Origin: Trypanosoma brucei
Lineage: Eukaryota
Assembly: GCA_000002445.1 (NCBI GenBank)
Contig: CH464491.1
Location: 3,744,001 to 3,808,000 of the forward strand
DNA: 64,000 nucleotides
Reading direction: 5' to 3'
Every line of letters begins with the position of its first letter. Position 1 is the first letter of the stretch. A program made the translations under genes and the position numbers. Positions 4,315-21,581 of the stretch are shown here, piece by piece. The notes under the pieces are model-generated. The model saw only the letters and a program-made list of their open reading frames with translations, ran no database searches and was not told the origin of the DNA.

Positions 4315-4920
4315 TAAACATTGTGTGAGTATTGCTTCGTGTCACATTTGCTGTTGTGTAACGGGTGACAGATCTATGGTTCATTAGTTTTTTTTCCGTT
4401 TTGGTTCCTTTTATTGTTCAGGCACACGTGTTTGTGTGCAGGTTTGTTGTGGGTACCAAATCGCGGAGCTAAGTGAGCGCGCTTGGCTTGGGAGCCGCTA
4501 TTTATTGTTTTTGTTATCGGTTACGGTATATTTGTTATTAGCAGTAGACGTACGCGAGCGGGGTGGGAAGAAAAACGTTGGATAGCAAATTTTTTAATGA
4601 GATTGTTTTCTCATGCGTGAGTCATTATATGTTTTGTTGTTGGACACCCTTTGGTGTGTTGTTGTTCTTGAGTGCTTTTCTTGATCTCTTCTCAACATCC
4701 GCTTGCTTGGCATTTTACCCATTTTCTTCCTAACAAATACTCAACCTTGATATGGGGTATACGTGTTGATGGATACGAATATCAAAAAGAAGTTTTTTTT
4801 CTTTCAACACTGGGTGATCTACGCTTCAAGCACGATAATTTTGTTCGGGAAAGGAGTAACGTAGGATCGAGTGAGCCCTTTAAAGGTTTGGGAAGGGAAA
4901 AGGGATAAATAGGTGTCTAA

Positions 4921-4947
4921 CAGTTTCCACCCTGTCCTCTTTTTCAA
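4921..4947 (+). promoter_or_regulatory. Polypyrimidine tract + AG: candidate trans-splice acceptor for the HECT ligase gene
   Basis: cagtttccaccctgtcctctttttcaag lies about 175 nt upstream of ATG 5121. Confidence 0.35.
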
Positions 4948-5120
4948 GGCGAAAACTTGTTGACGGTGCAGGGGAGGGATTGCCATTGTTGTTAGTGGTA
5001 TTTGCTCTTTGTTGCCATATTATAAAGGGTTCACCGAACACAGAGAAAATACATAATAACAGCTGAAAAAAAGAAAAAAAAGTGTACATATAATTAAATA
5101 TACGTTGGGGTGCTCGTTTA

Positions 5121-8100
5121 ATGGAGCATATTCTCAGCCGCCTTATGATGGATGCCGAAGGTGGTGGCTTGCAACGCCAGGCTATGAAGGACGTCATCAC
5201 CGCCAGAGAGAATTTGGCAAGCAACGATGAGGCCCGTGTAACAACAGGTTTGCTTGAGCTTTGTGATTTGCTCAACATGGCAACACCTATAACTATAGGA
5301 TCTATCCGCCCGAATGTGTTTGTTCCTCTTGTGGTGAACTGCATGAAGAAGGATAACATCGACCTTGTTATCCTCGCGGCACGGGCACTTACGTATATGG
5401 TAGACGCTATATCTTCTACGGTATTTGTTCTAGTCTCGGAGGGAGGAATCGACGTACTGCTTCAACATTTTCAAGAGGTGAAGGATATCGAGCTCTCTGA
5501 ACAGTGTTTAACATGTGTGGAGAAGATAACACAGAACTCTGTCTGTGCCGCTACGGTGCTGCAGAGTATGGGTGTGCCAGCTCTTTTGATGTACGTGGAT
5601 TTCTTTAATGCAGCTTCCCAGCGAAAAGCATGGACGAGCGTTGCAGCGATGTGCAGACGCGTTAACGAGTCGAATTTTGGTTGCGTAGAATGTTCACTTC
5701 AAGATATTAGTGCCCGAATTGATCATGATGATGCCAAAATATCAGAGAAAGCCATCACTTGCTTGTATCGTATCATATCGGGGGTTGGTAGTAACCCGGA
5801 ACTTGTGGCACGTGCATTTGGTGACAGTTGTAATCCACTTATCTCTGTCCTTAGCAGACAGGATTTGTCAGAGACAACTTTCACAACGGCACTATCGCTC
5901 ATTGCCTGTGCCATTGATTGCAGCACGGAAGCAGCTCGCCGAACTCTGGAATCTGGGATAGTGGAGTACATGTTTACACTGATCGCCAGTTCCTCCGAAC
6001 AGCAGCAGCGCCAAGATTTGGCCGGGTTCGCGGGTCGTACGGACGGGGTGTCGCGCGCCTCCGCTGCCAGGGAACCGTCAGCCCAACGGGAATCAGTGGA
6101 GACTGTCCCTCAACGAGATAGGCGACTTTCTGTTGAACAGACCAAAGCACTGTGTCTGGCTCTTACCGCTCTGCTGCCGAAGCTTAACAAGGGTTATCTT
6201 GTCCACGGTGACGCCCTTAACAAACTTATCGCAGAAGGACATGGTGAATCCCACCGACACGCCGGTGCTTCATCCTCGGAGGCAGATGAGGGTATGGGAG
6301 GTGATGATGATGAGGACGGGGACGGGGACATGGATGATGATGATGATGAGGAGGAGGAGGAGGAGTGTACTCACGAGGAAATTCTCTCACGGGTATCAGA
6401 ACGGGGTATTCTACTTGAAAATAACGAGAAGTACCGCACATGCCGCCTCAGGCACATGTGTGACGGTTGCGGTAAGTCGTGTATACCCACCAGCTGGTTT
6501 CGCTGTAATAAGTGCAGGGATTACGATTTGTGTGGGCGGTGCCTTCTTATGAACTGGGATAGCCACAGCCCAGACGGAGAGACCCATTCCTTCTGCGACA
6601 TGCTTGTCTTTTTCCCAAAGGTGAGTGATTCAGTAACTCCTGAAGAGGGCAAAGAGTCGAACAACAGTGACTTGACTGCCGAGCGCGAGAGGCTTTATGA
6701 AAGCAACCCACACCTTCTTGCCCTCATCCTTGGCGGTATCCCAACAGTTGTGGCACTGTTCAATGAATCTGAGGCACATCTCGTTCGGAATCATTGCTTG
6801 GCCTTTATTGACCGTGCTGTTGTTCTCGCGACGCCTGAACAATTGGCGGGGATCAAAGGACTCTCGGAGGCTGCTCTGTGCGAGATGATCGTGACGGCGA
6901 TGGTGGATAGCAGCCTCATCCTTAATGTACAGGTCATGTACCTCTGTCGTATGCTGCTGGAGAAGCTTCCCAAAGTGTACTTGCCTTGTTTTGTCCATGA
7001 GGGCGTCACGAATTCTCTAGTGAAGATACAGGAGCAAAATAAGTCGTTCGTGCATTGTAGTGAAGAGCCGACACCCGTTAAAGAACCCCCTTCCTCTGAG
7101 CGCTTCAACTCAGTTTCCGGATGGCGCGAACTGCTAGCAACGGAGGCGGAGGAAATGCTAGGTATGTTCACTTCCCTCAGTGACGACACAAGGATCCTTC
7201 GGTTAAAGGAGGTTGACCGGCTTTTGCGGGGGGGCAAGCTAAAGGAGGCATTTGACTCTCTCCGCGTTGCCCTCCTTGACGAAACTACCGCATTCGAACT
7301 GTCAGCGACTGATGTATTGCACAGTTTAGTGGAGGCTTTGAAGTCTGTGGATGATGTCAAGGCCATAGTGGCACTTCTCAAAACGTTGGCAAAACAGGAA
7401 CCAAACACCACCTCGACTCTGACACGATTTGTTCGGCTTCTTCAAACTGCGCTTTCACACCTTGATCAGTTCCAGTTACCCAATTTTGGCGCTGTGAACA
7501 CCATACAAACACAGATACCCCTTCGGCTCGTCCCACACGTAGCAGGTCACGCACCGAAACCGAAGGCATCCACTCCTCCAGCAAAAGGCAACGCCTCGAA
7601 ACGTGTGGCTTCCGGTTCCACTGCTGGTCCTCCGGTCCCCACACGGGAGGTGGTTACCAGGCGCCCCACAGGCACATCAGCGGCTCGTCCAGCCGCAGTC
7701 ACTAGCAGGAACAAGAAGGACCAATCGGCGTCACCGGCATCTACGAATACGGGTGGTGGAAAAAGTTCAGTGGAGAACCGAGAGGTTAGAGTTAGCGTAG
7801 AACCATTGACAAATCTGGAGGCACTAATGGGATTTGTAGGCTCAAACGTACTTTCCGGGGGTGGGGAATTTATTGGTAGCCCCGTCACTGGTGGTGGCCG
7901 TCGGCGCAACGATGACGACGAGGTGGAAGAGGTGTTGCCCGAGTTAGCCAACGGCGTGGACCCTGAGGGATTACCTAAAAAGAAAAAACCCGTGCAAGAG
8001 AAGTCGTGTAGGCCTGTTTACATGCGTTGCGGGAAATATGTGTTGCCGCCTTCATTGACGATTCTTCAGCTCCTACAGCGCTACCACACTCCATCACAGT

Positions 8101-11564: not shown

Positions 11565-14500
11565 ATGGAAGATATTCTCGACTTCAGCAAGCCCGTCGAT
11601 GTGCAGCGTTTCGACCAGGTAGTGCAATACCTCTCAACAGGCTCACCACAAGAGATCGTGAGGGCGCAGGAGGTTCTTACCGCATTCAAGGAGAGACCCG
11701 ACTCCTTTTTACGCGTAGGAGACCTTCTCACCAAATCGGTGAACCTCACGACACGTTTTTTTGCACTTCAGGTTCTGGAGGACGCGATTCTACACCGATG
11801 GAACACATTCACTGCGGAACAGTGTCAGGAAATTCGTAACTTTGTTGTTAACATGATTGTAGGTGAATGCGTGAGCTTCAATCAAATTCGTAGTAGGAGG
11901 GCTCTTCTTATGAAGATGAATAGTGCGCTTGTGTCAATAGCGAAGCGTGAGTGGCCCGTTCGTTGGCCGACCTTCATAAAGGACGTGTGCAGTAGTGCTG
12001 GGCCAGATGAACCTCTTGTAGAAAACAACCTGAACATTCTCCGCATGGTGGGCGAGGAGATATTTGAATTTAGCGAGAAAACTTTAACGACTCGATGGTT
12101 GAAACGAAAGAAGGAGGCACTGCAAAGCGACTTTCAGGCAATTCTTCAATTGTGTCTTTCGATTCTATCCACTAGTGACGAGGCGCTTCTCAAAACCAAT
12201 CTGGAGTGCCTGGAGAAATATCTTTCCTGGGTAGAACCGGCGTCCGTGTTTAACGAGGAATTACTGAAGTATCTTGCGGGACTAATCGCACGGAAGTCTG
12301 CCGTATCGCGCTGCGCGGTGCGTTGTCTTACAGTTGCGTGCTCCGTGGAGACAGATCACGGCTCAGTTGGGGACGCGCAAGCGCAGGTGATGGTTCGTGT
12401 GTTTCGCACAATCCTCGATAATATTATGAACTTACTTCCCACGAATCACTCTTCTGTTGAAGCGCGTATCGTCCAGTTTTCCAACATGGAAGGGAGTGTG
12501 GATGCAGGCTTTGTTGGCGATCTCAATCTTTTGTTGGTTGCGTTTTTGAAGCACTATACGAGAAATATTATGTACGACGATCTCTTGTTGATATCTGCCA
12601 ACCAATTGATCGTGGGAATGAGTCATATTAACGACAAGGAGCTATTCAAATCCTGTGTTGACTACTGGTGGTGGCTTGGTGAAAAGATGGTGCGGTCCGC
12701 ATCACCTACACCGCTACACCGGAAGCTGGCACTTGTACTCAGCAATGTTCGCTTTACTCTCATCAAGAAAATGGCAAGACCGGAGGAAGTCATTATTGTA
12801 GTCGAAGACGGTGAGGTGCGCAGGGTGCACATGAAGGATGTGGAGGAACTACAACTCTACAAATTAATGCGGGAGACGCTTGTTTTTTTAACATACCTCG
12901 ATCCTCAAGATATGCAGGCGATTATGACTAAAATCGTTATGAAGCTTGAAGACCTTAGCGAATGGAGTTGGCACAACTGCAACACATTATCATGGGCAGT
13001 CGGGGCGATATCTGTGGCCCTGACTGAGGAACAAGAATCTTCACTATTTGTAGTTATTGTACGTGGCCTGCTAGATCTTTGTAGCAAGCTACAAGGAAAG
13101 GAAAACCGTGCCGTTGTTGCGAGTGGTATCATGTTTGTTGTTGGGCAGTACCCCCGTTTCCTGCGTGCTCATCAGCCCTTTTTCCGCGCAGTGGTGAAGA
13201 AGGTAATTGAATTCATGTGCGACTTATTCCCTGGTGTGCAGGAAATGGCTGTGGATACTCTTTTGAAGGTGGCCTCGCAGGTACCAGATCAGTTTGTTTG
13301 TGTCAAGAACAATGGGATTTCCCTCGCTGAGGAAACGGCGAAGCGGTGGACTGAAATAACGTCTTTGTTAAAACCCCAACATATGCACACATGTTTTGTT
13401 GCAGCTGGTTGGATGGTGAAGGGAGAGAAGCCAGAGCGGCAGCCGAGTCTGTTAGGCATGTTTCTCCAAGATGCGAACGACAGTTTTAGGATTATTGTGG
13501 AGCGAGCAGCCTCTAAAGGTCCGGCCTTTGGGGAAGACTTTTCTGGTATGGGGGAGTTAATACACATTTTACGTGTCTTTAGCAGCATTGCGTCATCTTG
13601 TGGAACATCGTTTGTGAATGAGATGGGGATTATAATTTACGACCTTCAAGGACTCTATCGTACATTCTTCTCCGCCCAAACTGCCCTAGTTGCGGACCAT
13701 GGAACAGATGCCATGGAGAGGCAGGAGGCACGGTATTTAAGGCTAGCGAAGCGGGAGATCTTGCGAATTTTCGAGTGCTTTGTTGACAATACGGAAGAAT
13801 GTGACTTTGTGGCAACAAATTGCATGCCGAGTATTCTGACAACTGTTCTTGAGGACTACCGTGACTCGCTTCCCATAGTGAAGGAGGCAGGAGCCCTAGC
13901 TCTTGTGACGGCGTGTGTCAACAAGTTGGGCACGCGGTTGGCCGGGGATTGTGCTGCCATTTTGGACCACACGTTTGATACAACCATATCGATGATCTGC
14001 GCAAACGCTGAGGATTTTCCCGAGTTTCGCGTGAATCTTTTCAAACTGCTACACGCACTGAATACTCGCTGTTTTTCCAATTTCTTGAGCTACGCCTCCA
14101 CTAAGGGGGACGTTATAAACGGTATGCTGTGGGTAATCAAACATACAGATTTTGCTATAATGGAGACGGGGTTGAAGACTTTAGATGCTTTCCTTGAGAA
14201 TGTCTCCCGGTCAGAGTTACTTCAACCCTTCTACGATGCCTTTATGCAGCAAATATTTGTCGAGGTTTTGGTGTCCGCTATGGATTCGCTTCATGCCGCA
14301 GGATTCGAACTGCATTGTAGCATCCTCATCAAACTCTTCACTGTGTCTAGCATGTTTCCCGTAGATTTGCCAAAGCTCGGCCGAAACGATATTGAGAGCT
14401 TTCTTTGTGAGAACCTTTCAACCATTGCCACACTCACACCTGTCCTTATTAAGCAGTTTATTGCTGGAGCGTATGAAAAGTATGGAGACCCTGTCGAATT

Positions 14501-14666
14501 CAGGCGGAGCTTTGCAGATTTCCTCATAGAAATGCAGGTTTGGGGTGCTGAGGAGGAAAACAGACTGCAACAAGAGGAAGAACAACGCAGACGGGAGGAA
14601 GATATTCCGGGATTTGCTGCCCTTTCCGTGAAGGGGCCGCCACCAACACCTTCTTTTTATCCCTGA
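11565..14666 (+). CDS. XPO1: Exportin-1 (CRM1) nuclear export receptor
   Basis: 1033 aa. The N-terminus matches the CRM1 importin-beta N-terminal and CRM1 motifs (LDFSKPVDVQRFDQVVQYL..., ILRMVGEEIFEFSEKTLTTRWLKRKKEALQSDFQAI, WPTFIKDVCSSAG). The NES-cleft cysteine that reacts with leptomycin B is conserved in GLLDLCSKLQGKENRA (Cys codon 13081-13083). Confidence 0.95.
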   Translation: MEDILDFSKPVDVQRFDQVVQYLSTGSPQEIVRAQEVLTAFKERPDSFLRVGDLLTKSVNLTTRFFALQVLEDAILHRWNTFTAEQCQEIRNFVVNMIVGECVSFNQIRSRRALLMKMNSALVSIAKREWPVRWPTFIKDVCSSAGPDEPLVENNLNILRMVGEEIFEFSEKTLTTRWLKRKKEALQSDFQAILQLCLSILSTSDEALLKTNLECLEKYLSWVEPASVFNEELLKYLAGLIARKSAVSRCAVRCLTVACSVETDHGSVGDAQAQVMVRVFRTILDNIMNLLPTNHSSVEARIVQFSNMEGSVDAGFVGDLNLLLVAFLKHYTRNIMYDDLLLISANQLIVGMSHINDKELFKSCVDYWWWLGEKMVRSASPTPLHRKLALVLSNVRFTLIKKMARPEEVIIVVEDGEVRRVHMKDVEELQLYKLMRETLVFLTYLDPQDMQAIMTKIVMKLEDLSEWSWHNCNTLSWAVGAISVALTEEQESSLFVVIVRGLLDLCSKLQGKENRAVVASGIMFVVGQYPRFLRAHQPFFRAVVKKVIEFMCDLFPGVQEMAVDTLLKVASQVPDQFVCVKNNGISLAEETAKRWTEITSLLKPQHMHTCFVAAGWMVKGEKPERQPSLLGMFLQDANDSFRIIVERAASKGPAFGEDFSGMGELIHILRVFSSIASSCGTSFVNEMGIIIYDLQGLYRTFFSAQTALVADHGTDAMERQEARYLRLAKREILRIFECFVDNTEECDFVATNCMPSILTTVLEDYRDSLPIVKEAGALALVTACVNKLGTRLAGDCAAILDHTFDTTISMICANAEDFPEFRVNLFKLLHALNTRCFSNFLSYASTKGDVINGMLWVIKHTDFAIMETGLKTLDAFLENVSRSELLQPFYDAFMQQIFVEVLVSAMDSLHAAGFELHCSILIKLFTVSSMFPVDLPKLGRNDIESFLCENLSTIATLTPVLIKQFIAGAYEKYGDPVEFRRSFADFLIEMQVWGAEEENRLQQEEEQRRREEDIPGFAALSVKGPPPTPSFYP

Positions 14667-15076
14667 GGCACAAGGGGTAGGTAGGTGGAGTGTGTTATAA
14701 TTCTAAGGGACTGGGTTTATGTGGTGAAGAGGTCCACATAAAATGGTTAGGGTTCGCGATCTTTCCGCCGTTTGGTTGAACAGAGTGGGGTGGTAAAGTT
14801 TTTTAAAAAAGGAAGAGATGGAAATAAATCCCCACAGCCCAGTTTCCGATCCTTGTTAGGGGAGACAAGACATTGTTTGGATAACTAAACGCCTACCCGC
14901 GAGGCGAGGGTGCTTAAGTCTTATAAGTGTAGCGCCTACTTAAGAAGGTGCATATATGTGCGGGCCCGAACGCGTGAAACGGGAAGAGGAAACATTGTTT
15001 CGTGGAAAAAAGGGGAGGGAGGACATTGGTGTGCCGTTCCCTCGTTGTGAGTGGGCGATACTTGTCTGTCTCTGTA

Positions 15077-15096
15077 TCTGTGTGTGTGTGTGTGTT
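15077..15096. repeat. (TG)n microsatellite
   Basis: The sequence ctgtgtgtgtgtgtgtgtgt is seen directly. Confidence 0.9.
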
Positions 15097-15442: not shown

Positions 15443-15498
15443 CTTACCCTTATGTTTCTTTTCACATCTACGTCATTCAGTATAGTTTTTTTGTGCAG
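15443..15498 (+). promoter_or_regulatory. Polypyrimidine tract with two AG acceptors (15479-80, 15497-98) upstream of carrier gene A
   Basis: acttacccttatgtttcttttcacatctacgtcattcag...tttttttgtgcag. The first ATG downstream is 15511. Confidence 0.45.
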
Positions 15499-15510
15499 TT
15501 GTGCGGCTGC

Positions 15511-16551
15511 ATGACAACCGCCCTACGAGATGAGTGTTCCCCCTTACAAATGTATTCCGAACTTAACCCTCCAGTGGCAATTATGGCGGCTGTACCAGCA
15601 GCGGATATGCAACCTGCGGAAACTGATAACAAACCACGGCAGAAGTCACCGTCATCACACATTCTCGCTTCACAACTAGCATCTGCCGTCAGCACTACTA
15701 TGTTTTACCCAATGGATACGCTGCGCATTCGGTACATGTCACAAGACGGCACCATTCAGCGACAGCACAATGGACAGACGTACCGGTCTATTTACAGAGC
15801 TGTGGGTGTGATATGGAAGGAGGAGGGATTGCGTGCTCTCTTTCGTGGATGTCACGTTGCGGTATTGGGGGCTGTTGTAGCGTGGGGCGTGTACATGTTC
15901 GTATACCGCAAATTATGCGAGGTTTATAACGTTTCGTCTTTTGCAAGTAGAACTGGGATGTCTGTTGTGGCCAGCGTTACGTCGGCGCTGTTGACGACGC
16001 CTATTTGGCTCCTAAAAACTCGGATGCAGATTGAGTGTAGGGCTATGGGTACCTGTGGGAGCTACAGCGGCTTCTTCAAGGGTTTCCACCACATGCTCGT
16101 AACAACAGGCGTTCGTTCGCTTTGGCGTGGAGCGTCTGCGCAGCTCCTACTCGTTTTGCCCAATTCGCTCGGCTTTCCTATTTACGACTCGCTAAAGGAC
16201 TGCATAAACCAAAACATAATAGGGATTTCCGCAGAATCCTGTAGTTGGGTGCATGGACGCGACCTAACCGTAATAGAGGCGTGCCTTTGCTCAGTCGTCG
16301 CGAAAGTTTTTGTGGTGACCCTCTCTCAGCCATTCACGATGCTGAAGGTCCGACTGCAGGATCAACGCTGGAATCAAGGGGAGGTAAGATACATGACGAT
16401 TAAACAGTCGATTCCGCTCATCATAAGACGAGAGGGTGTGTACGGCTTCACACGAGGGTTAGCTTCATCACTGTTATACTCGGTTCCGCGTGGTGTTGCA
16501 TATTACGTTCTCTACGAGAAGTCTCTGCAGTTCTTCTCCCGCCGCGTCTGA
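15511..16551 (+). CDS. Mitochondrial carrier family (SLC25) protein, tandem paralogue A; Rim2/pyrimidine-nucleotide or folate/FAD carrier-like
   Basis: The track ORF begins at GTG 15493; the first ATG is 15511, but ATGs at 15583 and 15607 are also possible. Three carrier repeats carry Px[DE]xx[KR] signatures (PMDTLRIRY, PIWLLKTRMQIE, PFTMLKVRLQDQ). Nt 15612-15905 are near-identical to paralogue B. Confidence 0.85.
   Translation: MTTALRDECSPLQMYSELNPPVAIMAAVPAADMQPAETDNKPRQKSPSSHILASQLASAVSTTMFYPMDTLRIRYMSQDGTIQRQHNGQTYRSIYRAVGVIWKEEGLRALFRGCHVAVLGAVVAWGVYMFVYRKLCEVYNVSSFASRTGMSVVASVTSALLTTPIWLLKTRMQIECRAMGTCGSYSGFFKGFHHMLVTTGVRSLWRGASAQLLLVLPNSLGFPIYDSLKDCINQNIIGISAESCSWVHGRDLTVIEACLCSVVAKVFVVTLSQPFTMLKVRLQDQRWNQGEVRYMTIKQSIPLIIRREGVYGFTRGLASSLLYSVPRGVAYYVLYEKSLQFFSRRV
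15612..15905 (+). repeat. 294-bp segment duplicated at 293/294 identity in the downstream paralogue (17333-17626); gene-conversion tract inside carrier gene A
   Basis: Direct comparison of the two stretches shows a single synonymous mismatch (15774 a versus 17495 g). The flanking coding and intergenic sequence is divergent. Confidence 0.9.
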
Positions 16552-17267
16552 TTGGCATCCCCTTACATCATTGCCACTGGCTAATGGTCACTCCCTTAGG
16601 TATGTGCCGCTACATCGTCAAGACGCTTTGGTGCTTGTGTAGAAATTGTTACTCCCTACACAGCAACTTCATTAAACTAAGAGAGGCATTAATATTGCTC
16701 ACTTTCGCCTGAGAAGTTGTTTATCATTATTAACTTACTTGTCACTTTTTTCAGTTATCGTGCCCTCTGTTTTCATCTGTACAGTTTTATCAGTGCAGAA
16801 TTCGTTGCATATTTTTCTGTATTTTCCTGTTATCTGAAGTTACTCCCAAGTTGAAGGGAAATGACTTGTGTACTTCCCCTTCCAGCAGAGGAGGATTGCA
16901 TTGGATTGATGGGGGGGAAGGAAGGAATTAAGAGGGCATGTTTGAAGGGGGGAAATTAAAACGTTAAACATGCCATGAGTTGAGTTTGTAGTAGTCCTGC
17001 TGTACGGTACGGAGAGGTGGGGGTGAGGGGATGTGCTACGGTGAACCGCAAGGCAAAAACTAGGTGAGGGAAGGGACCCCTACACTTGATCTTCAGCATC
17101 TTTCCTCTTGCTTTGAAATACGTTGTTTCTGTCGGAAGTTCTGCGGTCTTCACCTCTCTCATCAATGTTCACTTCTATATGCGCTTTTCACTAAGTGTAG
17201 GTGAAAGCCCGGAGGTTAATTTTTTTCCCCGCGGATATTACCCTGCTTGTATAGTTAATCACTTCAG

Positions 17268-18287
17268 ATGGCACAAAGTACTGCTCGTCACGTAATGAAC
17301 ACGCCGCAGTCCCAACAGGGTCAGAACTTAACACCTGCGGAAACTGATAACAAACCACGGCAGAAGTCACCGTCATCACACATTCTCGCTTCACAACTAG
17401 CATCTGCCGTCAGCACTACTATGTTTTACCCAATGGATACGCTGCGCATTCGGTACATGTCACAAGACGGCACCATTCAGCGACAGCACAATGGGCAGAC
17501 GTACCGGTCTATTTACAGAGCTGTGGGTGTGATATGGAAGGAGGAGGGATTGCGTGCTCTCTTTCGTGGATGTCACGTTGCGGTATTGGGGGCTGTTGTA
17601 GCGTGGGGCGTGTACATGTTCGTATATCACGCGCTGTGCGACCTGTACATCCCAACAAGTAACAAAAGAGCGGGGGACGATTTCTTGTTTCGCACTGTTC
17701 TTTCCAGTATTGCCAGTTGCAGTTGCGCAGTCGTGGGAAACCCTATTTGGCTCCTAAAAACTCGGATGCAGATCGAGGAAATCGCCTCACGTGAGGCGGC
17801 AGTGGCTGGAGCTTCTATCTTTCGAAACAGCAAAAATTACACGTCATTCTTTGGTGGGTTAAGATACGCTATTCAAACTGACGGTGTTTTGTCGCTGTGG
17901 CGTGGTGTCTCCGCACAGGTCCTGCTAGGTTTACCGAACGCACTTAACTTTCCCGCTTATGAGGCACTGAAGTCGTTCTGGTTGCAGCGCACTGACCGAG
18001 AAACCCTTTACAGTTATGAGGCGTGCATTTGTTCAACAGCCAGCAAAACTGCGGTTTCGATCATCGGGTATCCCCTACACGTTGTTAAGACAAGAATGCA
18101 AGATCAGAGAAGTCGCCGAGGTGATTTACAATATGTTTCGTTTCTGCAGTCAGCCTGGCTCGTGCTGCAGACCCATGGATTTGCTGGTTTGTACCGTGGC
18201 ATGGTGCCGTCCTTGCTGCACTCAGTCCCACGTCTCGCGCTCACATTCGTTCTGTACGAGAAGTTAATGCAGCAGAATTTTTTTTAG
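17268..18287 (+). CDS. Mitochondrial carrier family (SLC25) protein, tandem paralogue B; Rim2/PNC-like (NPIWLLKTRMQIEE)
   Basis: ATG at 17268 directly after AG; 339 aa. Carrier signatures are PMDTLRIRY, NPIWLLKTRMQ and PLHVVKTRMQDQ. The segment NPIWLLKTRMQIEEIASRE...FFGGLRYAIQTDGVLSLWRG resembles SLC25A33/36 and yeast Rim2. Nt 17333-17626 are 293/294 identical to paralogue A. Confidence 0.85.
   Translation: MAQSTARHVMNTPQSQQGQNLTPAETDNKPRQKSPSSHILASQLASAVSTTMFYPMDTLRIRYMSQDGTIQRQHNGQTYRSIYRAVGVIWKEEGLRALFRGCHVAVLGAVVAWGVYMFVYHALCDLYIPTSNKRAGDDFLFRTVLSSIASCSCAVVGNPIWLLKTRMQIEEIASREAAVAGASIFRNSKNYTSFFGGLRYAIQTDGVLSLWRGVSAQVLLGLPNALNFPAYEALKSFWLQRTDRETLYSYEACICSTASKTAVSIIGYPLHVVKTRMQDQRSRRGDLQYVSFLQSAWLVLQTHGFAGLYRGMVPSLLHSVPRLALTFVLYEKLMQQNFF
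17333..17626 (+). repeat. Copy 2 of the 294-bp near-identical block (partner 15612-15905)
   Basis: See the partner block. A second 32-bp identical patch lies at 16000-16031 and 17742-17773 (cctatttggctcctaaaaactcggatgcagat). Confidence 0.9.
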
Positions 18288-18770
18288 ATTGGGGCATATT
18301 ATTTAATGCATACGAGGTTAAAATGTTTTGATCCTTTTCTTTTTGCACATTCGTGAACATTCATTTCACTTGTCGGAGGGTATTTTGAGCGCGCTGAAGG
18401 TGCATCGTGTGCTAACATGTAGGGGCATGTAAGCGCGGGCGTGTGCCTGCGTTGTAATGCAATGGTGACTTACCATTTGTGGTGTTGCATGTGTTTTTAT
18501 TGTAAGGTTCTGTCTAATTTGTGAAGGAAATATTGGTCTTTAAGTCAGAGATTTTCATTCGTTGGTTTGTCACACCAATTTGGTGATACCTCATCCAGGC
18601 ACAAGTTTCAGTGCCCTCATTCGATTTTTTTTTTTAACACTTATTCAGCCTTGGTGAATAGCAACTTGTAAGTAGCAGTGACGGGGGGAAGACAACGAAA
18701 ATCAGAAAAGAAAAAAAAACACAGTAAAGAAGCGAACGACGTCTTTAACTTTACTATAGCTGTAGCGGTT

Positions 18771-21581
18771 ATGTCCAAGGAGGCTCCACATCGCTTTCTA
18801 CTGGAGACGCGGTCTCAGCAGCTCCATCGTCTTGAAGCTATACGACGTCGTCGTGAATTGTTGGAGCGTGAATCGCAAAAACCTGTTCAGATGCGATTCG
18901 GCATTGGGGGAAGGGGGCCTTCATGGTCTCCACCACCACGGATTCAATCGCCTGTGGTGACAACGGTGAACGGGGTCCAGAAAAGGCCCGCTGAAACGCG
19001 AAAGGGCTTCTCATCTTGTTCCCGATGTCCACGCAGCTGCGAGCCACGGAAGGCTACCCATGTTCCACTTGTCCGCTCACGATCGGCACCTCACATGAGG
19101 CTTTCTCAATGCTTTGCAACTCGTTCCACTTCAAACCGCCGTACTTCATTAGTGCCGCCGTTCGGATCGCTCTGCAATTTGCAACAAAAGAAAGATACGC
19201 CTCCGATCAAGAGGATGTTGAAGCGACAACGTTCGCGTACAGTGTCTACTTCACCGTCAACTTCACTTACATCAAGATTCCGCAGGCGTACACCTCTGGC
19301 GAGCGCCCGCAACAAGGAGAAGATGACACCATGGAACAACTTTCCTAATACATCGAGATCGGCGCAAATATTAACTCCGCCATTGGGTCCAAAACATGGG
19401 AAAAGAGTTTCCGCCCCGCGCGAAAGGTCACCATCTCCCCTACCGTCCTCTACCCAAACCACTGCGATAAACGGGACGACACACGACGAACAACGGCAGC
19501 CTGCAGTGACGCTGGGTTCAGAAACAGTTTCATCCTCGCCTACCAACCGGTTTCCTCTTCCGAGGTCTCGGAGTGTCTCCAACGCCGAACCTAAGGAAAT
19601 GGTGAATCAGCATGTGGGATCATCCCCATTGAGGTGTGTCTCGGACGAAAATATGGAAACGGTCACCGCATTTCGCGTAAGCGAGTTCCCCACACCGCGC
19701 ACCCCTAAACTTCGTGAGAGTCTGGCCGTTTCGCTGTCCCCAGCAACTTCTCAGGGCGTGTCCATTAAGCAAGAGTTGGTGGCGGAGACTCGCATCAGCA
19801 CTGACAGTTCTCCTCCGGTCGTGAAAGAGGAGGCAACCTGCAACCCCTGTGATGGATTGTTACTGCAGTCGTCTACATGTCAGTCGGTTTTTGTGGGCAG
19901 TTCTTCCGTTCTTACCGGTGGTTTATGTGAAGTTGATATTCATCTCAATGAGGAATCAGATGCGCCCCCACCCTGTGAAATTGAAACCAGTAGGGACAAT
20001 AAGGAGACCAGGGTGAGTGCCGCGGCTTCTCCTGCTGGTGAAAGTGATATCGTTTCAATGTCTCCATCGTCACCAGGATGCAAAGCTGCAGCTGCTTGCA
20101 GACCCTCCGCCATGACGTCGTATACGTTCGATTGCAGCCCCACCACAAGTGAATTCGACGGAACCGAAATTGAGAGGAATTCTCACCGACAGCTCATGTT
20201 TGATATGGAAGAAAGCCAGAGCTCTACTGTGGCAGTTGAGGATAAAAAGAATGCGGATGGTCAGCTGCACCAACACGTTAGTGGTGAAGACGAAGAGTTG
20301 GAAAACGACAGTGACCTAAATAATCGGGAAGAAGAGTTGTGTACTCCAAGGGATAACCGCGGCGAGTGGCTACCTGATACTTTGACGCACGGACTCGATG
20401 CCTCTGCAGAGTCGGAGAAACCACATGAATGTGTGAATGCCCTCTGCACACCCGTGGATCAAATACTGTATTCATCACCGTTGTGTGAAATGGTGTCGCC
20501 ACGGCCGCAAACACCCTTGTTGCAAGTGAGAATGGAGCATAAGCTCACCATGCTCAACACTGCAGAGCGGGAAGATGAGAATTCACGCGGGAGTTTACTG
20601 TTGGTTACCGGTGAAAGTCCCATTCCTCACACACCTGTTCTACAGGAACCGCACACACCGCCTCCAACAGAGGGAGTCCCGCTATTTATTTCTAATACAT
20701 CGAATCTCCCTCGTCCTGTGACACTAATATCGGCACTTCAGTCTCCAATGAGTGCCCGTCGATTGGTCCGTCCAGTGGCTGAATCTCCTATCGGAGAATG
20801 TGCAGTGTGGAATGGGGGAAAGTGGTCTCCCCCGATGCGCACAGACTTAAATAAGGAGCCAACGGTCCAACCGCGGGAAGTAGTTGATCTAGAGCGACGA
20901 TACCTGGAGGCAGGCTCAGGACTACAAGGGGAATCGGTACCTTCGAGTTCCTCATCGCCCTGCTCCGGCTCTCGCTTTAAAAACAAAAAACTGCCTACTG
21001 ATTTGCTAATGGTTTCACATATACTTGAGGCAAGCGAAGAGGCTCACCAGCCAATAACGTCTGAGACATCGTGTTGTACACCGTCACATTCTCAGGGCAA
21101 TGATCAGGCGTCAGGACAGCTGTCAGGAAGTTCATCCACTGCACAGACCGCGGCTTCCCAACCGCGGAAGCATTATTACGAAAAAACTCACTGGGAGCAA
21201 CACCAACTGGGGACCACAGCAAGCAACATTGCGAAGGAACATCGTCGGAGTGAGAAGGTAGTAGGTAAAGTTGAGCTATGCGCCTCAAAGGTTTCAGAGG
21301 CTGTTGCTGCCTCCCTGAATTTCACAGCAGGTGAGAAAAGGGAAAGGGAAGCCAGTTCTGATACTGACCGGACTTCACAATCCCCACACATTTTGAAGGC
21401 GAATGCAGCTCCCAGCCGAGACTTACGACAAGCAGGGGCCTCTCCTCAAGGGTCATCACAATCCTCCACAGGTGACGATCCAATTGGAAGCACTACGCAA
21501 ACGAAACTTGTGTCAGAGAAACGCCACGCAAAGAAACACAGACGCCGGCGCGTTCGTCGCTTCAACAAGGGAGGAAAGTAG
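18771..21581 (+). CDS. Hypothetical low-complexity Ser/Pro/Thr-rich protein with a polybasic C-terminal tail (KKHRRRRVRRFNKGGK)
   Basis: The track ORF starts at GTG 18678; the first ATG is 18771 (MSKEAPHRF), giving about 936 aa. It is a long uninterrupted + strand ORF in a unidirectional array with no recognisable domain. The antisense ORFs inside it are rejected. Confidence 0.55.
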   Translation: MSKEAPHRFLLETRSQQLHRLEAIRRRRELLERESQKPVQMRFGIGGRGPSWSPPPRIQSPVVTTVNGVQKRPAETRKGFSSCSRCPRSCEPRKATHVPLVRSRSAPHMRLSQCFATRSTSNRRTSLVPPFGSLCNLQQKKDTPPIKRMLKRQRSRTVSTSPSTSLTSRFRRRTPLASARNKEKMTPWNNFPNTSRSAQILTPPLGPKHGKRVSAPRERSPSPLPSSTQTTAINGTTHDEQRQPAVTLGSETVSSSPTNRFPLPRSRSVSNAEPKEMVNQHVGSSPLRCVSDENMETVTAFRVSEFPTPRTPKLRESLAVSLSPATSQGVSIKQELVAETRISTDSSPPVVKEEATCNPCDGLLLQSSTCQSVFVGSSSVLTGGLCEVDIHLNEESDAPPPCEIETSRDNKETRVSAAASPAGESDIVSMSPSSPGCKAAAACRPSAMTSYTFDCSPTTSEFDGTEIERNSHRQLMFDMEESQSSTVAVEDKKNADGQLHQHVSGEDEELENDSDLNNREEELCTPRDNRGEWLPDTLTHGLDASAESEKPHECVNALCTPVDQILYSSPLCEMVSPRPQTPLLQVRMEHKLTMLNTAEREDENSRGSLLLVTGESPIPHTPVLQEPHTPPPTEGVPLFISNTSNLPRPVTLISALQSPMSARRLVRPVAESPIGECAVWNGGKWSPPMRTDLNKEPTVQPREVVDLERRYLEAGSGLQGESVPSSSSSPCSGSRFKNKKLPTDLLMVSHILEASEEAHQPITSETSCCTPSHSQGNDQASGQLSGSSSTAQTAASQPRKHYYEKTHWEQHQLGTTASNIAKEHRRSEKVVGKVELCASKVSEAVAASLNFTAGEKREREASSDTDRTSQSPHILKANAAPSRDLRQAGASPQGSSQSSTGDDPIGSTTQTKLVSEKRHAKKHRRRRVRRFNKGGK

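What the first reader, a model, noticed from the sequence alone, without database searches (positions are those of the whole stretch)
15493..18287. Tandem mitochondrial-carrier paralogues share a 294-bp block at 293/294 identity plus a 32-bp identical patch, embedded in otherwise divergent genes
Nt 15612-15905 and 17333-17626 differ at one synonymous site. A second exact patch (16000-16031 / 17742-17773) covers the PIWLLKTRMQ signature. The N-terminal extensions, the remaining coding sequence and all flanking intergenic DNA are divergent, and the second patch is offset by +21 nt relative to the first. This is the footprint of recent, patchy gene conversion between tandem paralogues that are otherwise free to diverge. 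One possibility is that the substrate-specificity regions are subfunctionalised while the first carrier repeat is homogenised. It also means short reads or probes from the first 100 codons cannot distinguish the two genes.
Basis: seen in the sequence. Interest (0 to 1): 0.6.

Follow-up and report, generated by a model that had tools for sequence, protein, structure and literature searches.

The report
Segment-limited gene conversion between carrier paralogues
Two ancient, side-by-side mitochondrial carrier genes of Trypanosoma brucei keep their first ~100 codons almost identical by repeatedly copying that segment between each other, and the same happens independently in nearly every Trypanosoma species examined; it is a clean example of a known process, not a new one.

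Summary
Window 15612-15905 and 17333-17626 match at 293/294 nt; the one difference is a synonymous GGA/GGG. Window 16000-16031 equals 17742-17773 exactly.

The genes are two tandem mitochondrial carriers of T. b. brucei TREU927 chromosome 11. I call them a (15511-16551) and b (17268-18287). By inference, b is TbMCP2, Tb927.11.14360. Outside the block they are saturated at synonymous sites (pS 0.72-0.77), against about 0.014 inside.

The CRM1-a-b arrangement is also present in Leishmania and Phytomonas, so the duplication is old.

- Eight Trypanosoma species have a near-identical a/b tract of about 180-296 nt at the same place (three T. brucei-group assemblies, vivax, theileri, melophagium, cruzi, rangeli, conorhini). 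T. congolense shows it at protein level only.
- The tract sequence differs between species. Orthologue pS in the core is 0.37-0.9.
- Trees flip: paralogues pair by species in the core and split a versus b elsewhere.
- SNPs among T. brucei-group assemblies show conversion intermediates.
- T. grayi, Phytomonas, Leishmania and relatives are not homogenised.

This is recurrent interlocus gene conversion limited to one segment, a known kind of process. Practical consequence: reads, probes or RNAi fragments within the block cannot tell the two genes apart.

The parts
15511..16551 (+). Carrier gene a, 346 aa. The ORF is open from GTG 15493. Inferred to be Tb927.11.14350.
   Evidence: It is 100% identical to the TREU927 protein P0007 and has three Mito_carr repeats. 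It is the a-type orthologue across trypanosomatids. The gene number is inferred from its neighbours.
17268..18287 (+). Carrier gene b, 339 aa. Inferred to be TbMCP2, Tb927.11.14360, a putative folate-type (SLC25A32-like) carrier.
   Evidence: It is 99% identical to the T. b. gambiense protein P0001 and has three Mito_carr repeats. The downstream gene is MAP103, Tb927.11.14370, and MCP2 is Tb927.11.14360. The L. donovani b-type orthologue is named MCP2.
15612..15905 (+). Converted block, copy in gene a (codons 34-132). It covers the end of the N-terminal extension, helix 1 with its signature motif, the matrix loop and matrix helix, and helix 2, i.e. the first carrier repeat.
   Evidence: 293/294 identity with 17333-17626. 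pS is 0.014. The Pfam repeat 1 coordinates and the alignment to ADP/ATP carrier structures place the helices.
17333..17626 (+). Converted block, copy in gene b (codons 22-120).
15774..15774 (+). The only a/b difference in the block: GGA in a, GGG at 17495 in b. This site is polymorphic among strains.
   Evidence: In T. b. gambiense and in GCA_003543875.1, gene a carries G, so this site is identical in a and b there.
15906..15999 (+). Unconverted spacer in gene a (94 nt), encoding the end of helix 2, the cytosolic loop and helix 3. The b counterpart is 17627-17741 (115 nt), which accounts for the +21 nt offset.
   Evidence: Gene b has a 7-codon insertion here. Every species' tract ends just before this indel-bearing loop.
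16000..16031 (+). Second exact patch, copy in gene a. It encodes PIWLLKTRMQI, the signature motif of repeat 2, and carries the b-type residues LLKT.
   Evidence: It is identical to 17742-17773. The longest exact a/b run outside the main tract in any other species is 17 nt.
17742..17773 (+). Second exact patch, copy in gene b.
16552..17267 (+). Intergenic spacer between a and b (716 nt). It is not homogenised.
   Evidence: BLASTN finds no a/b similarity in the flanks.
11565..14666 (+). Exportin-1/CRM1 gene. It is the upstream synteny anchor that identifies the orthologous locus in the other species.
   Evidence: CRM1 Pfam domains lie upstream of the a-b pair in the loci fetched with their upstream flank, L001-L011 and L014; L012 has no gene called upstream of a and L013 starts at gene b.

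Best explanation
The block and the patch are footprints of interlocus (non-allelic) gene conversion between two ancient tandem paralogues.

The conversion is recurrent and confined to the segment that encodes the first carrier repeat. When a DNA lesion in one copy is repaired by homologous recombination, the other copy 1.7 kb away serves as template. Sequence is copied without crossing-over, so both genes keep their own 5' and 3' parts and the copy number stays at two.

I infer that the tract sustains itself. T. brucei recombination needs about 50-200 bp of closely matching sequence and is impeded by mismatches. An already identical segment of 180-300 bp is therefore a good substrate. The saturated flanks, and the indel-bearing loop after helix 2, are not. 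Each conversion resets identity inside the tract and stops at its edges.

Selection on the diverged repeats 2 and 3 probably removes longer conversions. Those repeats carry paralogue-specific residues conserved across all trypanosomatids.

The 32-nt patch is a separate micro-conversion, or the remnant of one, at the signature motif of repeat 2.

Shown: the conversion, its recurrence, its boundaries and its occurrence in both directions. Inferred: the homology-limited mechanism and the role of selection.
For: 1. Synonymous divergence, a vs b, in the common core against the rest of the gene:
- T. brucei group: 0-0.05 vs 0.72-0.73.
- T. vivax: 0 vs 0.72.
- T. theileri: 0.085 vs 0.68.
- T. melophagium: 0.05 vs 0.75.
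- T. cruzi: 0-0.025 vs 0.80.
- T. rangeli: 0.025 vs 0.76.

2. Near-identical a/b tracts (T. vivax extension):
- T. brucei group: 293/294, 295/296 and 296/296 in the three assemblies.
- T. vivax: 183/184, or 286/288 with its upstream extension.
- T. theileri 216/224; T. melophagium 218/225.
- T. cruzi 177-178/179; T. rangeli 186/188; T. conorhini 187/187.
- T. congolense, protein only: 56/56 in the core and 26/27 in helix 1.

3. The nucleotides are not constrained. Orthologue pS inside the core is 0.37-0.44 (theileri-melophagium), 0.44-0.50 (cruzi-rangeli) and 0.72-0.74 (brucei-vivax), about the same as outside it.

4. The trees disagree. In the core, a and b of one species are sisters, with bootstrap 96-100% in six species. 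In the rest of the gene that grouping gets 0% and the a|b split gets 86%.

5. Site patterns, concerted: orthologous:
- In the tract: 22:4, 26:0 and 53:0.
- In the rest: 2:172, 5:145 and 20:52.

6. Intermediates are visible among three T. brucei-group assemblies:
- Site 15837/17558 is T/T, C/T and C/C.
- Site 15870/17591 is G/G, G/G and A/A.
- Site 15774/17495 is A/G, G/G and G/G.

7. It is a non-crossover process. CRM1-a-b synteny holds wherever the upstream flank was fetched, every genome examined has two copies, and a-type and b-type sequence is kept on both sides of the tract.

8. Boundaries:
- The 3' edge always lies at the end of helix 2, before the loop with the indel.
- The 5' edge is clade-specific. 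In brucei, congolense and vivax it lies in the N-terminal extension. In theileri and melophagium it lies at YPFD. In cruzi, rangeli and conorhini it lies at (R)FMSQDG.

9. Conversion ran both ways. The shared block mixes a-type residues (FYP.DTLR, RALFRG, YRSLC) with b-type residues (GQTY[HR]SI, GCH), judged against five non-Trypanosoma genera.

10. Recombination in T. brucei rises linearly with substrate length from 50 to 200 bp and plateaus near 200 bp. It is impeded by mismatches, and short-patch mismatch repair occurs (PMC1904282).
Against: - The mechanism was not observed directly. Recombination dependence, initiation sites and tract lengths are inferred from sequence patterns.
- A purely neutral, homology-limited tract should eventually decay, as it apparently did in T. 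grayi. Its persistence in 9 of 10 sampled Trypanosoma species may need either a high conversion rate or selection for identity.
- In T. brucei the 5' edge lies inside the poorly conserved N-terminal extension. How homology arose there is not explained.
- There is no GC3 enrichment in the tracts, so GC-biased conversion leaves no visible signature.
- The 32-nt patch is below the ~50 bp efficiency threshold for T. brucei recombination, so its origin is uncertain. It could be short-patch repair of a longer heteroduplex, a remnant, or the short-substrate pathway.
Confidence: 0.88

Rival explanations
1. Identity of repeat 1 is itself favoured by selection. Conversion supplies the variants, and selection fixes those that keep the first repeat of both carriers the same. 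The reason could be a shared partner, a shared import or insertion signal, or a shared regulatory site. This adds a layer to conversion rather than replacing it.
For: - The tract persists in 9 of 10 Trypanosoma species with clade-stable boundaries.
- The core is the best-conserved part of the protein even where it is not homogenised (pN 0.28-0.30 vs 0.40-0.43 in Leishmania and Phytomonas).
- The unusual loop MSQDGT.QRQHNGQTY is conserved in both paralogues of all trypanosomatids.
Against: - T. grayi and all five non-Trypanosoma genera manage with 55-75% identity in the core, so identity is not generally required.
- Nothing here shows a shared partner.
- Neutral, homology-dependent conversion already predicts the pattern.
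Confidence: 0.15
2. The nucleotide identity reflects purifying selection on an embedded RNA or DNA element, or on codon usage, rather than sequence exchange.
For: The tract encodes the most conserved part of the protein.
Against: - Orthologues differ at synonymous sites in the tract as much as elsewhere (pS 0.37-0.9).
- There are 22-53 species-specific substitutions shared by both paralogues.
- Paralogues in Leishmania, Phytomonas and T. grayi are saturated in the same segment (pS 0.64-0.76).
Confidence: 0.01
3. Assembly artefact: a collapsed or chimeric assembly copied one gene's 5' part onto the other.
For: Identical 294-bp repeats 1.7 kb apart can confuse short-read assemblers.
Against: - The same mosaic is present in TREU927 (the window), T. 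b. gambiense DAL972 and GCA_003543875.1, each with its own SNPs.
- It is also present in seven other species assembled independently.
- The unique flanks on both sides are intact.
Confidence: 0.01
4. One single ancient conversion in the Trypanosoma ancestor, followed by slow evolution of the segment, with no ongoing exchange.
For: All Trypanosoma, including T. grayi, share b-type GCH and GQTY[HR]SI in copy a. This fits at least one early event.
Against: - Tract sequences are species-specific, and a and b are sisters within each species (bootstrap 96-100%).
- Paralogue pS is at most 0.085, while sister-species orthologue pS is 0.37-0.50.
- Intermediate SNP states occur within the T. brucei group.
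Confidence: 0.01
5. Reciprocal exchange rather than conversion: unequal crossing-over or a double crossover between the tandem copies or between alleles.
For: Tandem direct repeats can undergo unequal sister-chromatid exchange. A double crossover cannot be told apart from conversion in the final sequence.
Against: - A single unequal crossover would change the copy number and fuse an a-5' end to a b-3' end. Every genome examined has exactly two copies, with a-type and b-type sequence on both sides of the tract.
- A repeated double crossover within 300 bp is less parsimonious than non-crossover repair.
Confidence: 0.05

Closest known systems
Partial gene conversion in T. brucei tandem gene arrays (Jackson 2007, BMC Evol Biol 7:54, PMC1855330). 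From my own knowledge, the classical PGKB/PGKC conversion in T. brucei is a similar case.
   Same: Same organism, same tandem head-to-tail arrangement in a polycistronic unit, and the same process of chimaeric copies produced by partial non-reciprocal exchange. Jackson found this in 21 of 47 arrays.
   Different: This pair appears only in that paper's catalogue (Table S3, array 118, chromosome 11i, 2 copies, 1041 bp). It was not analysed, because only arrays with >3 copies were studied. Here the paralogues are ancient and otherwise saturated, and the converted segment is a fixed sub-genic domain maintained in parallel across most of a genus.
Regional concerted evolution with 'islands of divergence' between old paralogues. 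Theory, from my own knowledge: Walsh 1987, Teshima and Innan 2004. Examples in the held library: GOT1 paralogues in Tigriopus (PMC3728101) and HMA4 in Arabidopsis halleri (bioRxiv 10.1101/2025.10.29.685298), both found.
   Same: Mosaic genes in which one part is homogenised by interlocus conversion while other parts stay diverged. Boundaries are set by homology and selection. Some lineages escape (T. grayi here).
   Different: Here the homogenised part is the minority: an island of identity in a sea of saturated divergence. It corresponds to one structural repeat of a three-repeat transporter. T. theileri and T. melophagium keep a small a/b-specific island (AMMSW vs AVAAW) inside the tract.
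Mitochondrial carrier family, folate/FAD/NAD/pyrimidine-nucleotide branch (SLC25A32-like); TbMCP2.
   Same: Three Mito_carr repeats. Homologues carry the KEGG/JGI label SLC25A32. TbMCP2 is reported to branch with human SLC25A32, to be mitochondrial, and to be a hit in antifolate RNAi screens (PMC5114424). From my own knowledge, a Trp in place of the acidic residue in the second signature motif (PIW) is typical of this branch.
   Different: No transport data exist for either paralogue. Which substrates a and b carry, and whether they differ, is unknown.

Membership tests
Interlocus (ectopic) gene conversion / segmental concerted evolution | A tract of paralogue identity whose synonymous divergence is far below that of the flanking coding sequence | tested here: met
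   pS is 0.014 in the block and 0.72-0.77 outside it. Four-fold sites differ at 1/53 vs 30/40, p = 1e-14. The permutation test gives p < 5e-5.
Interlocus (ectopic) gene conversion / segmental concerted evolution | Phylogenetic incongruence: paralogues group by species in the tract and by orthology outside it | tested here: met
   NJ bootstrap for within-species a+b pairs is 96-100% in the core and 0% in the rest. The a|b split has 86% support in the rest. Site patterns agree.
Interlocus (ectopic) gene conversion / segmental concerted evolution | Orthologues are not unusually conserved at silent sites in the tract, which excludes nucleotide-level constraint | tested here: met
   Orthologue pS in the core is 0.37-0.9, similar to the rest of the gene.
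Interlocus (ectopic) gene conversion / segmental concerted evolution | Non-reciprocal and non-crossover: copy number and both flanks are preserved | tested here: met
   There are two copies in CRM1-a-b synteny wherever the upstream flank was fetched, and a- and b-specific sequence lies on both sides of the tract. Non-reciprocity itself cannot be seen in end products.
Interlocus (ectopic) gene conversion / segmental concerted evolution | Direct demonstration of the recombination event (RAD51/BRCA2 dependence, donor-to-recipient transfer) | not testable with these tools
   This needs experiments. The SNP states T/T, C/T and C/C among strains are the closest indirect evidence.
Mitochondrial carrier family (SLC25, Pfam PF00153) | Three tandem ~100-residue Mito_carr repeats | tested here: met
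   Both proteins have three matched stretches, E 3.8e-50 and 8.8e-52. They also match solved ADP/ATP carriers and UCPs.
Mitochondrial carrier family (SLC25, Pfam PF00153) | Signature motif PX[DE]XX[KR]X[KR] on each odd-numbered helix | tested here: inconclusive
   Repeat 1 has PMDTLRIR, which is canonical. Repeat 2 has PIWLLKTR, with Trp in place of the acidic residue. Repeat 3 has PFTMLKVR in a and PLHVVKTR in b, with no acidic residue. The motif is complete only in the converted repeat.
Folate-type carrier (SLC25A32 / TbMCP2) | Orthology or phylogenetic placement with SLC25A32 | not tested
   Only second-hand evidence: source annotations on homologues and the statement in PMC5114424 citing Colasante 2009. 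The Colasante paper is not held in the library.
Folate-type carrier (SLC25A32 / TbMCP2) | Demonstrated folate (or FAD/NAD) transport | not testable with these tools
   I found no transport data. The RIT-seq antifolate hit is indirect, and the shared 294-bp block may make it ambiguous between a and b.

The most novel reading that the evidence does not exclude
The first carrier repeat is kept identical in the two transporters because Trypanosoma needs it to be identical. Possible reasons are one shared partner, one shared insertion or regulatory determinant, or a site-specific initiator of recombination inside the segment. On this reading the tract is a selected, domain-level 'co-evolution by conversion' module maintained since the origin of the genus, not a neutral by-product of homology-dependent repair.
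Probability: 0.12. Interest if true: 0.7.

Novelty: new member of a known kind. Interest (0 to 1): 0.42.

Why it matters
1. Evolution. This is an unusually clean natural experiment on how old paralogues stay partly locked together. One structural repeat of a transporter evolves in concert in at least nine species, while the other two repeats have stayed orthologous since before the trypanosomatid radiation. The 5' boundary is specific to each clade, and one lineage (T. grayi) has escaped. That makes it useful for estimating conversion rates against mutation rates and for testing homology-threshold models in trypanosomes.

2. Phylogenetics and annotation. Trees or orthology calls built on the N-terminal third of these proteins will wrongly suggest species-specific duplications.

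3. Practical work on T. brucei. Any read, probe, primer, RNAi fragment or guide that lies within nt 102-395 of gene a or nt 66-359 of gene b hits both genes. The RIT-seq antifolate hit assigned to MCP2 (PMC5114424), and any knock-down of either gene, should be re-examined with paralogue-specific 3' sequences.

Tried and rejected
- GC-biased conversion. GC3 in the tracts is not consistently higher than in the rest of the genes: brucei 0.52 vs 0.53-0.55, vivax 0.65 vs 0.54-0.55, theileri 0.15-0.17 vs 0.28-0.32. No signal.
- T. congolense DNA. The look-up of P0002 found no contig, so T. congolense is covered at protein level only.
- Colasante et al. 2009 (the carrier inventory) is not held. A search for Tb927.11.14350 found no paper. 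The name of gene a and the assignment of MCP2 to gene b therefore rest on neighbouring gene numbers and on the Leishmania 'MCP2' label.
- T. conorhini. The two genes sit on different contigs, and I suspected a break at the repeat. The break is in the intergenic spacer, and the contig ends overlap by ~40 nt. It is not caused by the tract.
- Third copy. BLASTN and TBLASTN against the whole window find only the two genes.
- Microhomology at the 5' junction. A 9-nt GAACTTAAC lies directly upstream of the block in b and 44 nt upstream of it in a, in different reading frames. It is too short to interpret and I did not pursue it.
- Structure prediction and fold search were not used. The family assignment is unambiguous from Pfam and PDB sequence matches.
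- Purifying-selection, assembly-artefact and single-ancient-event explanations were considered and rejected (see rival explanations).
Full report
**1.

The window contains two head-to-tail ORFs. One runs 15493/15511-16551 and the other 17268-18287, both on the + strand. Each has three Pfam Mito_carr repeats (E 3.8e-50 and 8.8e-52).

- The repeat finder and direct comparison give 15612-15905 vs 17333-17626 at 293/294 identity. The single mismatch is 15774 A / 17495 G, which is GGA vs GGG, both Gly.
- A second, exact 32-nt match joins 16000-16031 and 17742-17773 and encodes PIWLLKTRMQI.
- The two matches are offset by 1721 and 1742 nt. Between them lie 94 nt in the first gene and 115 nt in the second, which do not align.
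- BLASTN of the two loci with their flanks finds nothing else in common, and the window holds no third copy.
- Shuffling mismatch positions 20,000 times never gives an exact run longer than 39 nt, against 162 observed.

**2. Which genes these are**

The first gene, read from ATG 15511, is 100% identical to a T. b. brucei TREU927 protein. The second is 99% identical to a T. b. gambiense protein. I call them a and b.

- Upstream lies exportin-1/CRM1 (11565-14666).
- Downstream (18678-21581) lies the ~103 kDa protein MAP103, Tb927.11.14370.
- MCP2 is Tb927.11.14360 (PMC5114424), and the Leishmania b-type orthologue is labelled MCP2. So b is most likely TbMCP2 and a is most likely Tb927.11.14350. 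This assignment is an inference from gene numbering.
- TbMCP2 is reported to branch with the human folate carrier SLC25A32 and to be a hit in antifolate RNAi screens.

**3. The identity comes from sequence exchange, not constraint**

- Nei-Gojobori pS is 0.014 in the block (1 difference over 71 synonymous sites). In the remaining aligned codons it is 0.77, which is saturated, with pN 0.40.
- At four-fold degenerate sites, 1/53 differ inside the block and 30/40 outside (Fisher p = 1e-14).
- The decisive control is the orthologue comparison. Between species, the same segment is as diverged at silent sites as the rest of the gene. Core pS is 0.37-0.44 for T. theileri vs T. melophagium, 0.44-0.50 for T. 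cruzi vs T. rangeli and 0.72-0.74 for T. brucei vs T. vivax.
- A nucleotide-level functional element or codon constraint is therefore excluded.

**4. The duplication is old and the locus is syntenic**

I fetched the orthologous loci:
- T. vivax, T. theileri, T. melophagium, T. grayi, T. rangeli and T. conorhini;
- three T. cruzi strains;
- T. b. gambiense and a further T. brucei-group assembly, GCA_003543875.1;
- Phytomonas EM1 and Leishmania major.

Where the upstream flank was retrieved, all show CRM1, then carrier a, then carrier b. In GCA_003543875.1 (L012) no gene is called upstream of a. In T. conorhini the two genes are on separate contigs whose ends overlap.

Outside the first repeat, a-type and b-type proteins carry diagnostic motifs across all these taxa. 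Examples are SPIWLIKSRMQIEEA and LKVRLQDQRWN.GEVKY in a, against NPIWLLKTRMQLEE and LKTRLQDHRSRCGELQY in b. A neighbour-joining tree of that part splits a from b with 86% bootstrap. The duplication therefore predates the split between Trypanosoma and Leishmania/Phytomonas.

**5. The same segment is homogenised, independently, in almost every Trypanosoma**

Near-identical a/b tracts at the homologous position (T. vivax extension):

| Genome | Identity |
|---|---|
| T. brucei TREU927 (window) | 293/294 |
| T. b. gambiense | 295/296 |
| GCA_003543875.1 | 296/296 |
| T. vivax | 183/184 (286/288 with an upstream extension containing a 1-nt indel) |
| T. theileri | 216/224 |
| T. melophagium | 218/225 |
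| T. cruzi | 177-178/179 |
| T. rangeli | 186/188 |
| T. conorhini | 187/187 |

For T. congolense only proteins were available. They are identical at 56/56 core residues and 26/27 helix-1 residues.

The tract sequence differs from species to species:
- In the core, a and b of the same species are sister sequences, with 96-100% bootstrap in six species. In the rest of the gene that grouping has 0% support.
- Sites where both paralogues of one species share a state that differs from both paralogues of the other species outnumber orthologous sites 22:4, 26:0 and 53:0 inside the tract. Outside it the counts are 2:172, 5:145 and 20:52.

At least one conversion must therefore have happened after speciation in each lineage.

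The segment is not homogenised in:
- T. grayi (core pS 0.65, 75% protein identity);
- Phytomonas and L. major (pS 0.64 and 0.76);
- Leptomonas, Novymonas, L. martiniquensis and an unnamed trypanosomatid contig, at protein level (55-64% core identity).

**6. The process is still running**

Three T. brucei-group assemblies differ at three sites in the block, and each shows a stage of spread from one copy to the other:

| Site (a/b) | Window | T. b. gambiense | GCA_003543875.1 |
|---|---|---|---|
| 15837/17558 | T/T | C/T | C/C |
| 15870/17591 | G/G | G/G | A/A |
| 15774/17495 | A/G | G/G | G/G |

These independent assemblies also rule out an assembly collapse.

**7. Anatomy of the tract**

- In T. 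brucei the block covers codons 34-132 of a and 22-120 of b. That is the last ~15 residues of the N-terminal extension, helix 1 with its PMDTLRIR motif, the matrix loop MSQDGTIQRQHNGQTY, the matrix helix, and helix 2. In other words, it is the first carrier repeat.
- The 3' edge lies at the end of helix 2 (…YMFVY / YRSLC) in every species. This is just before the loop where b carries an insertion relative to a.
- The 5' edge is clade-specific. In T. brucei, T. congolense and T. vivax it lies in the N-terminal extension. In T. theileri and T. melophagium it lies at YPFD. In T. cruzi, T. rangeli and T. conorhini it lies at (R)FMSQDG.
- Sister species thus share boundaries while having different tract sequences. 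This is what one expects if homology set up before speciation defines where later conversions can occur.
- Judged against the five non-Trypanosoma genera, the shared block mixes a-type residues (FYP.DTLR, RALFRG, YRSLC) with b-type residues (GQTY[HR]SI, GCH). Exchange has therefore run in both directions (by inspection).
- In T. theileri and T. melophagium a small a/b-specific island (AMMSW vs AVAAW on helix 2) survives inside the tract in both species. It accounts for the four orthologous sites and may mark residues under paralogue-specific selection.

**8. The second patch**

- The 32-nt exact run in T. brucei compares with a maximum of 17 nt outside the main tract in any other species, and at most 12 nt in most.
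- Copy a of T. brucei and T. congolense has the b-type LLKT where other a-type genes have LIKS or IKT. This points to a small b-to-a transfer.
- T. vivax (MQIED) and T. cruzi (RMQLED) have 17-nt runs at the same motif.
- In GCA_003543875.1 the patch already carries one difference (16012 C>T).
- I read it as a micro-conversion or a remnant of one, with less certainty than for the main block.

**9. Mechanism**

The following is inferred, not shown.

- T. brucei homologous recombination rises linearly with substrate length between 50 and 200 bp and plateaus near 200 bp. It is impeded by base mismatches, and short-patch mismatch repair can accompany it (Barnes and McCulloch 2007, PMC1904282).
- A 180-296 bp identical segment 1.7 kb from its partner is therefore a near-optimal repair template. 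The saturated flanks, and the loop indel at the 3' edge, are not.
- Each conversion restores identity within the tract and ends at its edges, so the island maintains itself.
- A lineage in which enough mismatches accumulate between events would escape. T. grayi may be such a case. Its core pN (0.12) is lower than in Leishmania and Phytomonas (0.28-0.30), which is consistent with an older homogenisation that has decayed.
- Selection against conversion in repeats 2 and 3 is plausible, because a/b-specific motifs there are conserved across all trypanosomatids. It was not tested.
- I found no GC3 shift that would indicate GC-biased conversion.

**10. Comparison with what is known**

- Partial gene conversion in T. 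brucei tandem arrays is established. Jackson (2007) found chimaeric copies in 21 of 47 arrays.
- That paper's catalogue lists this very pair as array 118 (chromosome 11i, 2 copies, 1041 bp, span 2777 bp). Only arrays with >3 copies were analysed. I found no paper describing this mosaic.
- Regional concerted evolution with islands of divergence is also well described in other organisms.
- The finding is therefore a new, well-resolved member of a known kind.
- The less common features are that the homogenised part corresponds to one structural repeat of a three-repeat transporter, that it is maintained in parallel across nearly a whole genus with clade-specific boundaries, and that the genes are otherwise saturated.

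**11. Consequences**

- Orthology and phylogeny based on the N-terminal third of these proteins will be misleading.
- Short reads, probes, primers and RNAi fragments within the block cannot separate the two genes.
- This bears on the antifolate RIT-seq hit attributed to MCP2 and on any knock-down of either gene.

**12. Verdict**

Novelty: new member of a known kind. Interest is moderate.

Noticed in passing
L001 about 4384-4490 (T. vivax gene a, upstream of the annotated start at 4487): The a/b identical tract continues ~100 nt upstream of the annotated Met of T. vivax gene a. It contains a 1-nt deletion relative to b (ACGTTGG-GTTCTAC vs ACGTTGGCGTTCTAC). As a result the annotated protein (266 aa) starts at the internal MSQDGT and lacks helix 1. 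This is either a sequencing indel or a real frameshift that truncates carrier a.
   Followed up: partly
L004 5399-5614 (T. cruzi, GCA_003177105.1): Gene a is called as only a 71-aa fragment in this T. cruzi assembly, whereas two other strains have the full 329 aa. It is probably due to frameshift errors in the assembly. I did not check.
   Followed up: no
L002 and L006, alignment columns ~168-174 (T. theileri and T. melophagium, helix 2): Inside the homogenised tract, a small paralogue-specific island (a: GAMMSW/GAMVSW; b: GAVAAW) is kept in both sister species. T. grayi a also has the a-type IMSW. These are candidate residues under paralogue-specific selection that resist conversion.
   Followed up: partly
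window 15612-15905 compared with L011 and L012: SNP density among the three T. brucei-group assemblies looks higher in the block of gene a than in the rest of its CDS. About 3-4 SNPs fall in or at the 3' edge of the 294-nt block, against about 3 in the other 747 nt. This would fit conversion-associated diversity, but the numbers are too small to test.
   Followed up: no
window 15559-15567 and 17324-17332: The 9-mer GAACTTAAC abuts the 5' edge of the block in gene b and lies 44 nt upstream of the block in gene a, in a different reading frame. It could be microhomology at an old junction or coincidence.
   Followed up: no
window ~15000-15080, 16745, 16910, 17018: Simple-sequence stretches in the intergenic regions vary in length between T. 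brucei TREU927, T. b. gambiense and GCA_003543875.1. They include TG/TC-rich repeats upstream of gene a and a T run and a G run between a and b.
   Followed up: no
window 15493-15510: The mechanical ORF of gene a starts at GTG 15493, but the annotated TREU927 protein starts at ATG 15511 (346 aa).
   Followed up: yes
window 16000-16023 / 17742-17765, and repeat 3 of both genes: Only repeat 1, the converted one, has a canonical PX[DE]XX[KR]X[KR] motif (PMDTLRIR). Repeat 2 has Trp in place of the acidic residue (PIWLLKTR). Repeat 3 has PFTMLKVR in a and PLHVVKTR in b. The matrix salt-bridge network would therefore be incomplete in both carriers.
   Followed up: no
L007 (T. grayi) 4669-5643 and 6001-6966: T. 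grayi is the only sampled Trypanosoma without a homogenised tract (core pS 0.65). Its core pN (0.12) is well below that of Leishmania and Phytomonas (0.28-0.30), and copy a carries the b-type GCH. This suggests an old conversion followed by escape.
   Followed up: partly
L012 (GCA_003543875.1): I labelled this T. brucei-group assembly 'Tequ' in my scripts on the guess that it is T. equiperdum. The tools did not give the organism name, so that label is unverified.
   Followed up: no
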